Positions 11,527 to 12,629 of a stretch of DNA of 64,000 bases are shown one piece after another (positions within the stretch are counted from its first letter, which is position 1; every line of letters begins with the position of its first letter). The stretch is taken from positions 17,362,001 through 17,426,000 of the forward strand of contig CM119372.1 of the NCBI GenBank assembly GCA_051294905.1, in the 5' to 3' direction. Under the pieces are notes generated by a model. It was not told where the DNA came from and did not search any database. It worked only from the letters and a program-made list of their open reading frames with translations. The DNA is from Botryllus schlosseri (taxonomy: Eukaryota). A program made the translations under genes and the position numbers.

Positions 11527-12629
11527 TTAGTCGGACATATCATCAATAAGTTCGTGCTCATGATCATTGTCGCTGTGCTCTGCTTGGGATTTTCGCACGA
11601 CGTCTGCACGCTCATCTAAAAATAAACCGTGGTGAGAGCCCGATTCGAACACGTTAGCGGAAAAGGGTGTTGACTTGTTATCGACCCATGAAAAAACATA
11701 CGGAATAATGCGTACACCTTTACTGGTCATACCTGGTTGCATATCAGCCAATTCGTCCAAAGATGCGATCATCTCACTGACGTCTTCCTCAGGAAATCTT
11801 AATGTCAAATCGTCCTGCAGGAGCTGCATGTACTCATTGTAGGCTTCGTGATCCTGCACAGGAATCCGAAATAGTTTTTTTTCGCTGCTGTAGGCTACTT
11901 ATTTGAGCTGATTAGTTCAACTCTCGTCAGTATGCAACTTACTTCAGATTTCAGATTCGCTATTTCGTTGATGTGCGATTCCGCGTCTTTACCCATTGCT
12001 ACTGTGGCTCCTACGGTAGCTGCAGTGTTGATAAACGGCCTGCAATATATGTGAAGCAAGTTATAAAAAGTCTAGCGTTCTTTTTTATTCCTATTGTACG
12101 ATGTGAAGCGTATCGATCGATGATTGTAATAATTTTACACCAGGCCGTTACATTCGTTGTAGAATCCTTTCCTGTCGACTTACAACACGAGCCACATTCG
12201 CACTCGTTTTTTTTTGCACAACTTATTTGCAGCTTGAGTGACAATGAGGATTTAGTAGAAAGAAACCTTGAACTCTTCACCTAAGATTCTATATTTCACA
12301 TCGGTCGTAATAAAGTCCACGGCCCATTCGAGTTACGGTATGTTTTTGACGTGGAAGGGCATGGTACATTCGAGTGATTTTGGATGTTACTGCGTAATGA
12401 CTAGAAGGATTAAAAAGAGATTGCTGACGCACATCGATTTTACTCACGAGTGTTTGTTGTAAAACTTGTACGCTCCTTTAGCAGCTTTTCCCACCGCTTT
12501 CCCTACTTTCCTCACCCATCGCCGTCTCCTTCTGCTGCTGCTTCTCCTTCTCCTTCTACCCCAAGCATCCCCATCCGGAATCAAGAGTAGAATCACCACC
12601 AAAATCGTAAGCGAAACAACAAATTTCAT
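11527..12629 (-). CDS. Styelin-like cationic antimicrobial peptide precursor, gene A (162 aa, 4 coding exons)
   Basis: Coding exons 12629-12448, 12039-11943, 11853-11733, 11615-11527, all GT-AG, phases 2/0/1. Joined ORF: MKFVVSLTILVVILLLIPDGDA-WGRRRRRSSSRRRRRWVRKVGKAVGKAAKGAYKFYNKHSPFINTAATVGATVAM-GK-DAESHINEIANLKSE-DHEAYNEYMQLLQDDLTLRFPEEDVSEMIASLDELADMQP-DERADVVRKSQAEHSDNDHEHELIDDMSD*. Signal/cationic/acidic layout and KFYNKH motif resemble styelins. AATAAA on - strand at 11426-11421. Confidence 0.9.

What the first reader, a model, noticed from the sequence alone, without database searches (positions are those of the whole stretch)
11733..11853. Invariant 121-bp exon encodes a conserved acidic pro-domain (..Y.E(Y/F).Q...D...RFP.ED.......D(E/D).ADMQ)
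Seen: the exon is exactly 121 bp / 40 aa in A (11853-11733), B (22703-22583) and C (51138-51258), gap-free, with invariant D, Y, E, Q, D, RFP, ED, D, ADMQ, whereas the cationic peptides differ in length and sequence. Inference: a folded (probably helix-RFP turn-helix) module under purifying selection next to a hypervariable effector, analogous to the cathelin domain of cathelicidins but C-terminal; the best handle to define the family.
Basis: partly seen in the sequence, partly recalled or inferred. Interest (0 to 1): 0.72.

Follow-up and report, generated by a model that had tools for sequence, protein, structure and literature searches.

The report
Conserved pro-domain of botryllin-family antimicrobial peptides
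This small exon encodes the best-conserved, acidic part of three neighbouring sea-squirt genes related to the known antimicrobial peptide botryllin, and it is predicted to fold into two helices that likely keep the positively charged peptide harmless until it is cut free.

Summary
The exon is 121 nt, AG..GT, phase 0 to 1, in genes A, B and C, with 15 of 40 residues identical (shuffle maximum 4). RNA reads confirm its borders in A and B; C was not tested. A profile of the three 40-mers found botryllin of Botryllus schlosseri (WCR67982.1, E=2.9e-5 among 1.84 billion proteins) and five unnamed genomic fragments. The three genes are therefore new paralogues (33-45% identical) of a published styelin-like antimicrobial prepropeptide, and the exon is the core of its roughly 85-residue C-terminal acidic pro-region. 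'Invariant' is too strong: across relatives only five of the 15 positions hold, and RFP and ADMQ vary. Length and the hydrophobic pattern are what is kept. AlphaFold predicts helix-turn-helix (pLDDT 89), with no known fold or Pfam match; dN/dS cannot be computed because synonymous sites are saturated. It is not a cathelin domain. An acidic helical C-terminal pro-region is the textbook layout of ascidian antimicrobial precursors; the likely role is masking and packaging the cationic peptide. I found no paper describing this domain, and no earlier scan note matched the exon.

The parts
11733..11853 (-). Gene A coding exon 3 (121 nt, 40 aa, net charge -11): the conserved acidic core of the pro-region; the finding itself
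   Evidence: borders confirmed by spliced RNA reads; helix-turn-helix model
12448..12629 (-). Gene A coding exon 1: 22-aa signal peptide, Trp-Gly-poly-Arg head, first part of the cationic peptide
   Evidence: joints 12038/12447 and 12629/13810
11943..12039 (-). Gene A coding exon 2: end of the cationic peptide, Gly-Lys-Asp putative processing site, start of the pro-region
   Evidence: processing site inferred from styelin and clavanin cleavage before Asp
11527..11615 (-). Gene A coding exon 4: variable acidic tail and stop; precursor 162 aa
13810..13865 (-). Gene A non-coding first exon; its intron ends immediately before the ATG; TATA-like box near 13895-13889
   Evidence: joint 12629/13810 and loose read ends at 13865; TATA-like box read from the sequence
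22583..22703 (-). Gene B coding exon 3 (121 nt, net charge -10); 24 of 40 residues identical to botryllin 85-124
24965..25149 (-). Gene B coding exon 1 (signal peptide, poly-Arg head, Lys/Val-rich peptide); a non-coding exon lies upstream from 25312
22760..22841 (-). Gene B coding exon 2, with the Gly-Asp putative processing site
22426..22514 (-). Gene B coding exon 4; precursor 158 aa
51138..51258 (+). Gene C coding exon 3 (121 nt, net charge -12)
   Evidence: no reads laid
47945..48111 (+). Gene C coding exon 1; needs a GC donor at 48112 to keep the intron phases 2/0/1 of A and B
   Evidence: open 160-aa frame; the GT donor at 48116 broke the frame; predicted, not tested with reads
50970..51048 (+). 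Gene C coding exon 2, with the Gly-Arg-Lys-Asp putative processing site
   Evidence: predicted
51518..51633 (+). Gene C coding exon 4; precursor 160 aa
   Evidence: predicted

Best explanation
The exon encodes the conserved core of the C-terminal acidic pro-region of three botryllin-family antimicrobial prepropeptides; it is predicted to fold as an amphipathic helix-turn-helix and likely acts as a built-in chaperone that masks the cationic peptide during secretion and granule storage until proteases cut it off. Shown here: gene structure, expression of A and B, homology to botryllin, conservation. Predicted: the fold, probably extended by one helix from the end of exon 2 and one from the start of exon 4. 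Inferred from botryllin, styelins and other ascidian peptides: storage in morula-cell granules, removal of the poly-Arg head at a furin-type site, cleavage just before the first Asp of the pro-region, possible amidation at the preceding Gly, and membrane-lytic killing by the freed peptide. Inferred and untested anywhere I read: physical masking of the peptide by this domain.
For: Homology: profile E=2.9e-5 to botryllin over all 40 positions; tblastn of botryllin hits exons 1 and 3 of A and B and exon 1 of C at E 6e-11 to 2e-5; 33-45% overall identity. Charge balance: cationic segment +15 to +19, pro-region -19 to -21, whole proprotein 0 to -5 in 4 of 4 precursors, although peptide length varies from 46 to 55 aa. 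Fold: pLDDT 89, pTM 0.58; family-averaged hydrophobic periodicity at 94 and 108 degrees, p=0.04 and 0.013; hydrophobic columns 5, 9, 12, 20, 29, 32, 35 and 38 are kept. Literature: an antibody to botryllin residues 82-93, nine of which fall in this exon's span, labels morula-cell granules, so the pro-region is stored with the peptide; the synthetic peptide without it kills microbes (PMC9966394). Anionic helical C-terminal regions occur in 17 of 22 Ciona candidates, and styelins and clavanins are cut before Asp (PMC7387483). Pro-domains generally counter membrane activity and aggregation (review PMC10608444).
Against: Exon 3 carries only about half of the acidic charge (-10 to -12 of -19 to -21); the rest lies mostly in the poorly conserved exon 4, so charge masking alone does not explain why this exon is conserved. 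A partner that differs widely between paralogues is an odd fit for a tightly conserved binding surface. Helix 1 is not significantly amphipathic in 8 of 9 single sequences on the Eisenberg scale or 6 of 7 on the Fauchere-Pliska scale; the family-averaged test was run afterwards. High pLDDT is common for short helical peptides, and in the precursor model the alignment had depth almost only in this exon. The Atlas model of whole botryllin is poor (pTM 0.37). In PMC9966394 the pro-region antibody also stains extracellular traps and blocks killing by conditioned medium, which a simply discarded inhibitor would not obviously predict.
Confidence: 0.55

Rival explanations
1. The module is a recognition or docking domain: its conserved surface would be read by the granule-sorting machinery, by the protease that cuts before Asp, or by enzymes that modify the peptide, so that one constant handle serves many variable peptides.
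For: It explains a conserved domain beside a variable peptide and the fixed polar residues Y5, Q10, D24 and near-fixed E23, D37, P40. Styelins carry bromotryptophan and hydroxylated Arg, Lys and Phe (review passages). Follower and recognition sequences of RiPPs and conopeptides are an analogy (search listing; details recalled).
Against: Styelins are modified, yet the Pfam Styelin model (59 positions) shows no match to this module, so the modifying machinery does not seem to need it. No modification has been shown for botryllin (PMC9966394 leaves it open). No partner is known.
Confidence: 0.2
2. The module has its own job outside the cell: it would stay attached or bound after release and tether or deliver the peptide in extracellular traps, or act as a separate immune effector or signal.
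For: The antibody against botryllin 82-93 labels extracellular traps and prevents killing by conditioned medium (PMC9966394). Conservation exceeds that of the signal peptide.
Against: The authors read the same staining as processing after release; an antibody could block that cleavage. The mature peptide alone is active. No fold or family match suggests an effector function.
Confidence: 0.15
3. It is an ordinary unfolded acidic spacer; its apparent conservation would reflect ascertainment and modest constraint, not a fold.
For: Raw identity is only a little higher than in the cationic part (0.48 against 0.41). The relatives were found with this exon's own profile, so their full-length match is partly selected. 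dN/dS could not be measured.
Against: Composition-controlled z of 8-15 against 0.7-5 for the equally acidic exon 4; no indels; conserved hydrophobic periodicity; confident helical model.
Confidence: 0.1

Closest known systems
Botryllin of Botryllus schlosseri (WCR67982.1 / OP851480; Franchi, Ballarin and Cima 2023, PMC9966394)
   Same: Precursor of 158 aa (here 158-162); signal peptide, Trp-Gly-poly-Arg head, cationic peptide, long acidic pro-region; gap-free 40-aa match to this exon (residues 85-124; 16, 24 and 13 of 40 identical to A, B, C); same net charges.
   Different: None of A, B, C is botryllin itself (33-45% identity); the peptides differ in length and sequence; activity and cell type are untested for A, B, C. 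The paper reported only three near-identical sequences and could not settle paralogy, and did not analyse the pro-region beyond an antibody. A 2026 atlas mentions one 'Botryllin paralog' without describing the family.
Styelins of Styela clava (Pfam PF17562) and clavanins
   Same: Cationic helical peptide followed by an acidic C-terminal pro-piece, cut before Asp; aromatic-x-Lys-His-like stretch in the peptide; botryllin 33-63 matches profile positions 1-27 at E=0.0083.
   Different: The match is below the curated cut-off (16.9 against 27 bits) and covers the peptide only; the 40-aa module does not match the profile. The whole profile has 59 positions, so the styelin pro-piece is much shorter than the 84-92 aa here.
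Ciona linear cationic peptides (Ci-MAM, Ci-PAP; PMC7387483)
   Same: Order signal, cationic amphipathic region, anionic helical pro-region; the pro-region is called relatively conserved in the Ci-MAM family.
Cathelin domain of cathelicidins
   Same: Only the logic: a conserved pro-domain beside a variable antimicrobial peptide.
   Different: Cathelin is N-terminal, about 100 aa, cystatin-like, with two disulfides. This module is C-terminal, 40 aa, has no Cys, is predicted all-helical, and has no Pfam or fold match to it.

Membership tests
Botryllin family | Sequence homology to botryllin in both peptide and pro-region | tested here: met
Botryllin family | About 158-aa prepropeptide: signal, cationic peptide, long acidic C-terminal pro-region | tested here: met
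   162, 158 and 160 aa; charges; A and B confirmed by reads, C predicted
Botryllin family | Same exon-intron structure as the botryllin gene | not testable with these tools
   The gene figure in the paper's supplement is a picture; only its legend was readable; no genome is held
Botryllin family | Expression in morula cells and storage in granules | not testable with these tools
   A and B are expressed in 3 raw RNA runs, cell type not resolved
Botryllin family | Antimicrobial activity of the mature peptide | not testable with these tools
   inferred from homology and charge only
Styelin (PF17562) | Score at or above the Pfam cut-off of 27 bits | tested here: inconclusive
   Single exons gave no match; the peptide spans two exons and was not scanned whole; botryllin itself scores 16.9 bits
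Styelin (PF17562) | Gly and/or basic residues before the first Asp of an acidic pro-piece | tested here: met
   G77-K-D in A, G74-D in B, G68-R-K-D in C; cleavage itself is inferred
Styelin (PF17562) | KHK motif shared by styelins and botryllin (PMC9966394) | tested here: not met
   Degenerate in all three: K-H-S in A, K-Y-K in B, K-H-G in C
Styelin (PF17562) | Pro-piece homologous to the styelin pro-piece | tested here: inconclusive
   0 of 3 exon-3 peptides match the profile; botryllin matches only positions 1-27 of 59; distant homology is not excluded
Styelin (PF17562) | Bromotryptophan, hydroxylated residues, amidation | not testable with these tools
   needs mass spectrometry
Cathelin domain | N-terminal to the antimicrobial peptide | tested here: not met
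   C-terminal in 4 of 4 precursors
Cathelin domain | Four conserved cysteines | tested here: not met
   No Cys in 10 of 10 aligned 40-mers
Cathelin domain | Cystatin-like fold with a beta-sheet | tested here: not met
   Both AlphaFold models are all-helical, with no strand; prediction only

The most novel reading that the evidence does not exclude
The botryllin pro-region holds an undescribed, cysteine-free helical 'follower' domain: a constant docking module that lets one set of granule enzymes process and modify a diversifying library of antimicrobial peptides, or that stays bound and is needed to activate or deliver the peptide in extracellular traps. That would be RiPP-like logic in a chordate immune peptide family.
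Probability: 0.2. Interest if true: 0.62.

Novelty: new member of a known kind. Interest (0 to 1): 0.3.

Why it matters
It turns botryllin from an apparently single gene into a diverged multigene family, gives three new candidate antimicrobial peptides (two shown to be well expressed), and supplies a 40-residue profile that finds members whose peptides are too variable to search. It also marks a small, cysteine-free, expressible domain with which the long-assumed but rarely tested role of C-terminal acidic pro-regions in ascidian peptides can be tested directly. A specialist would find this useful, not very surprising, unless the docking or delivery reading proves true.

Tried and rejected
No whole genome is held, so family size could not be counted. 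Word-index protein searches: exon A against longer proteins, 0 of 4 candidates; botryllin, only itself among 80 candidates; alignment A2 'longer' covered 278-2000 aa and so missed the 160-aa range, 0 of 7997, uninformative. Two of the 8 profile hits (P0003, P0005) were dropped as repeat-inflated partial matches. P0002 (34 of 40 identical to A) and P0010 (near copy of P0006) were left out of the periodicity test. Pfam: no match for the exon. PDB by sequence: 7 hits at E up to 10, best 0.0037 over 18 positions, none credible. Fold searches: Foldseek none at E 0.001 or better for either model; VIA best Z 5.5 (rmsd 2.1, 40 aligned) and 4.4 (rmsd 8.3, 95 aligned), generic helical matches; these blanks do not show a new fold. 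ESM Atlas: unnamed clusters at 0.90-0.92 with low recognition, and no usable hit for botryllin 66-140. Complex prediction of botryllin 70-140 with 23-69 gave no verdict (score 0.02, mark 0.34) and is not used either way. Metagenome contigs: 0 of 100 pattern matches confirmed; 0 of 55 loci encode the domain. No run was listed as an RNA holder by record; raw reads were laid instead. dN/dS failed through saturation. My first exon borders were off by 1-4 bases and were corrected. Alignment A3 of exon pieces was misaligned and not used. A fourth copy at 63793-63745 was considered and not accepted: the profiles do not hit it. Paper searches gave no paper describing this domain or the paralogue cluster; the library lacks most subscription journals.

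Full report
Observation. They align without gaps, share 19-22 of 40 residues in pairs and 15 of 40 in all three; 20,000 shuffles gave at most 4. Profiles find exactly three strong copies in the window. The genes have four coding exons with intron phases 2/0/1 and give precursors of 162 (A), 158 (B) and 160 (C) residues. C keeps these phases only with a GC donor at 48112, which is a prediction. Reads from 3 raw RNA runs (3-6% of each read) and 1 contig set, laid on 11400-25500, confirm all three coding introns of A and of B and show a further intron ending just before each ATG; the exon-3 joints have tens to thousands of reads per run, and contig support is partial. So the element is coding exon 3, the fourth exon of the transcript.

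Identity. A profile of the three 40-mers run against 1.84 billion proteins returned 8 hits. Two are long repeat proteins matched over 12-18 positions and were dropped. One is botryllin of Botryllus schlosseri, WCR67982.1, matched over all 40 positions at residues 85-124 with E=2.9e-5; B shares 24 of 40 with it. Five are unnamed fragments from Logan and ENA whose flanks look like intron read-through; in four of them the spacing between the apparent acceptor and donor is again 40 residues (inferred from protein sequence). One (P0002) is 85% identical to A and may be an allele or orthologue. Whole precursors are 37%, 45% and 33% identical to botryllin, so A, B and C are paralogues, not botryllin itself. 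That the animal is a botryllid, probably Botryllus, is inferred from this homology and agrees with an earlier scan note; I did not test it with a marker gene.

Conservation. With shuffles that keep composition, exon 3 is the best-conserved region in the 6 pairs among 4 precursors: z 8-15 and excess score 2.51 per residue, against 2.02 for the signal peptide, 1.09 for the cationic part (0.59 without its poly-Arg head) and 0.62 for the equally acidic exon 4. It has 0 gap runs where the rate elsewhere (15 in 115 columns) predicts about 5. Raw identity differs less (0.48 against 0.41). Synonymous sites are saturated (pS 0.75-0.83), so dN/dS cannot be had; pN is 0.24-0.33 against 0.39-0.42. Of the 15 'invariant' positions only D1, Y5, Q10, D24 and M38 hold in all of 7 further sequences; RFP and ADMQ vary, and what persists is length and a hydrophobic pattern. 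Among the 40 best-supported read differences shown (1261 more were hidden), gene A has 5 amino-acid-changing and 1 silent codon in exons 1-2 and 1 conservative and 1 silent in exon 3; this sample is too small and too selected to weigh.

Structure. AlphaFold with 10 sequences gives helix 2-19, a turn at 20-25 and helix 26-37, pLDDT 89, pTM 0.58. In a model of whole botryllin the confident stretch is about 71-130, with extra helices from the exon-2 tail and exon-4 start, so the unit is probably wider than the exon; the alignment had depth mainly in exon 3, which makes that peak partly circular. Helix 2 is amphipathic in 10 of 10 sequences on the Eisenberg scale (p<0.05), helix 1 in only 1 of 9; a later family-averaged test gave p=0.013 and 0.04. 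No Pfam, PDB-sequence, fold or Atlas match stands out, which does not show a new fold. A complex prediction gave no verdict.

How it likely works. Counting on the botryllin record, residues 33-69 are 37 residues with 11 lysines and end before Asp70, which fits the paper's mature peptide (37 aa, +11.2) and the start of the Styelin profile match. The layout is therefore signal, poly-Arg head with a furin-type site, peptide, acidic pro-region (inferred). In all 4 precursors the cationic segment (+15 to +19) is balanced by the pro-region (-19 to -21). In botryllin an antibody to residues 82-93 labels morula-cell granules, furin is reported in those granules, and the peptide alone kills bacteria and yeast (PMC9966394). 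I therefore favour a folded built-in chaperone that masks and packages the peptide until cleavage (0.55). Against it, the exon holds only half the charge, its partner varies, and the same antibody stains extracellular traps and blocks killing by conditioned medium. These points keep alive a docking role for sorting, processing or modifying enzymes (0.2) and a role after release (0.15). A plain spacer is least likely (0.1).

Comparison and novelty. The order signal, cationic helix, anionic helical pro-region is standard in ascidians: 17 of 22 Ciona candidates have it, and styelins and clavanins are cut before Asp (PMC7387483). The botryllin type differs in a longer pro-region with this conserved core, which does not match the Styelin profile. 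The cathelin comparison (features recalled) holds as logic only: position, cysteines and predicted fold all differ. The botryllin paper could not decide on paralogues; a 2026 atlas names one paralogue in a haemocyte cluster. Seven searches gave no description of the domain or the cluster. Earlier scan notes showed none near this place and none like this exon (reports that overlap mine are withheld), and one unrelated or distantly related secreted peptide family with an Arg-rich head.

What I read. PMC9966394: parts 1-4 of 7 of the text plus passages with tables and legends; its supplement gave only a legend, so the botryllin gene structure was not seen and may bear on whether the 121-nt exon is shared. 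PMC7387483 and PMC10608444: passages. PMC13635237: one section, passages, and a search of 4 supplementary files with 0 hits. bioRxiv 10.1101/2025.05.27.655565: passages; supplements not seen. All other papers: search listings only.

Verdict. A real, expressed, well-conserved and probably folded part of a known kind of precursor: three new members of the botryllin family, with a pro-domain nobody seems to have characterised. Interest 0.3; the docking or delivery reading has about a 1 in 5 chance and would deserve about 0.6.

Noticed in passing
window 48112-50969 (+): Intron 1 of gene C appears to begin with GC, not GT; only this donor keeps the frame and the phases of A and B.
   Followed up: partly
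window 11529 (-), gene A stop codon: A common read variant turns the stop into a sense codon, adding four residues; about 39% and 45% of reads in two bulk runs and nearly all in the single-cell run.
   Followed up: partly
window 11989-11990, gene A exon 2: A read variant changes Lys78 to Gly at the putative processing site; the botryllin paper's epitope table and the GenBank record also differ between Gly and Lys at the equivalent place, so the cut site seems polymorphic.
   Followed up: no
window 13865 and 13895-13889 (-): Hundreds of reads end at 13865 in letters that look like a template-switch adapter (recalled), about 25 bases downstream of a TATA-like box: the likely transcription start of gene A.
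   Followed up: partly
window 22789-22766 (-) against the end of exon 3: The tail of exon 2 resembles the last helix of exon 3 (5 of 8 identical, E 8.7), a weak hint of internal duplication.
   Followed up: no
window 63793-63745 (-): An isolated 49-nt candidate exon with good splice sites, phase 0 to 1, whose 16 residues resemble the end of exon 3; not hit by the family profiles and no partner exon found.
   Followed up: partly
start of the cationic region in A, B, C (e.g. window 12563-12543, -): The Trp-Gly-poly-Arg head right after the signal peptide is conserved in all four precursors and lies outside botryllin's reported mature peptide; an earlier scan note describes an Arg-rich head in another secreted peptide family of this genome, so it may be a shared sorting or processing tag.
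   Followed up: no
window 22823/24964 and 25059 (gene B), 22403: Reads show an allele of B with a divergent start of exon 2, a 3-base insertion in exon 1 and a 3-base deletion in the 3' untranslated region.
   Followed up: no
window-wide, e.g. 2305-3328/52888-53926, 35758-37083/57132-58457, 60146-60812: The space between the genes is filled with 65-90% identical interspersed and inverted repeats; no stop-free stretch exceeds 164 codons.
   Followed up: no
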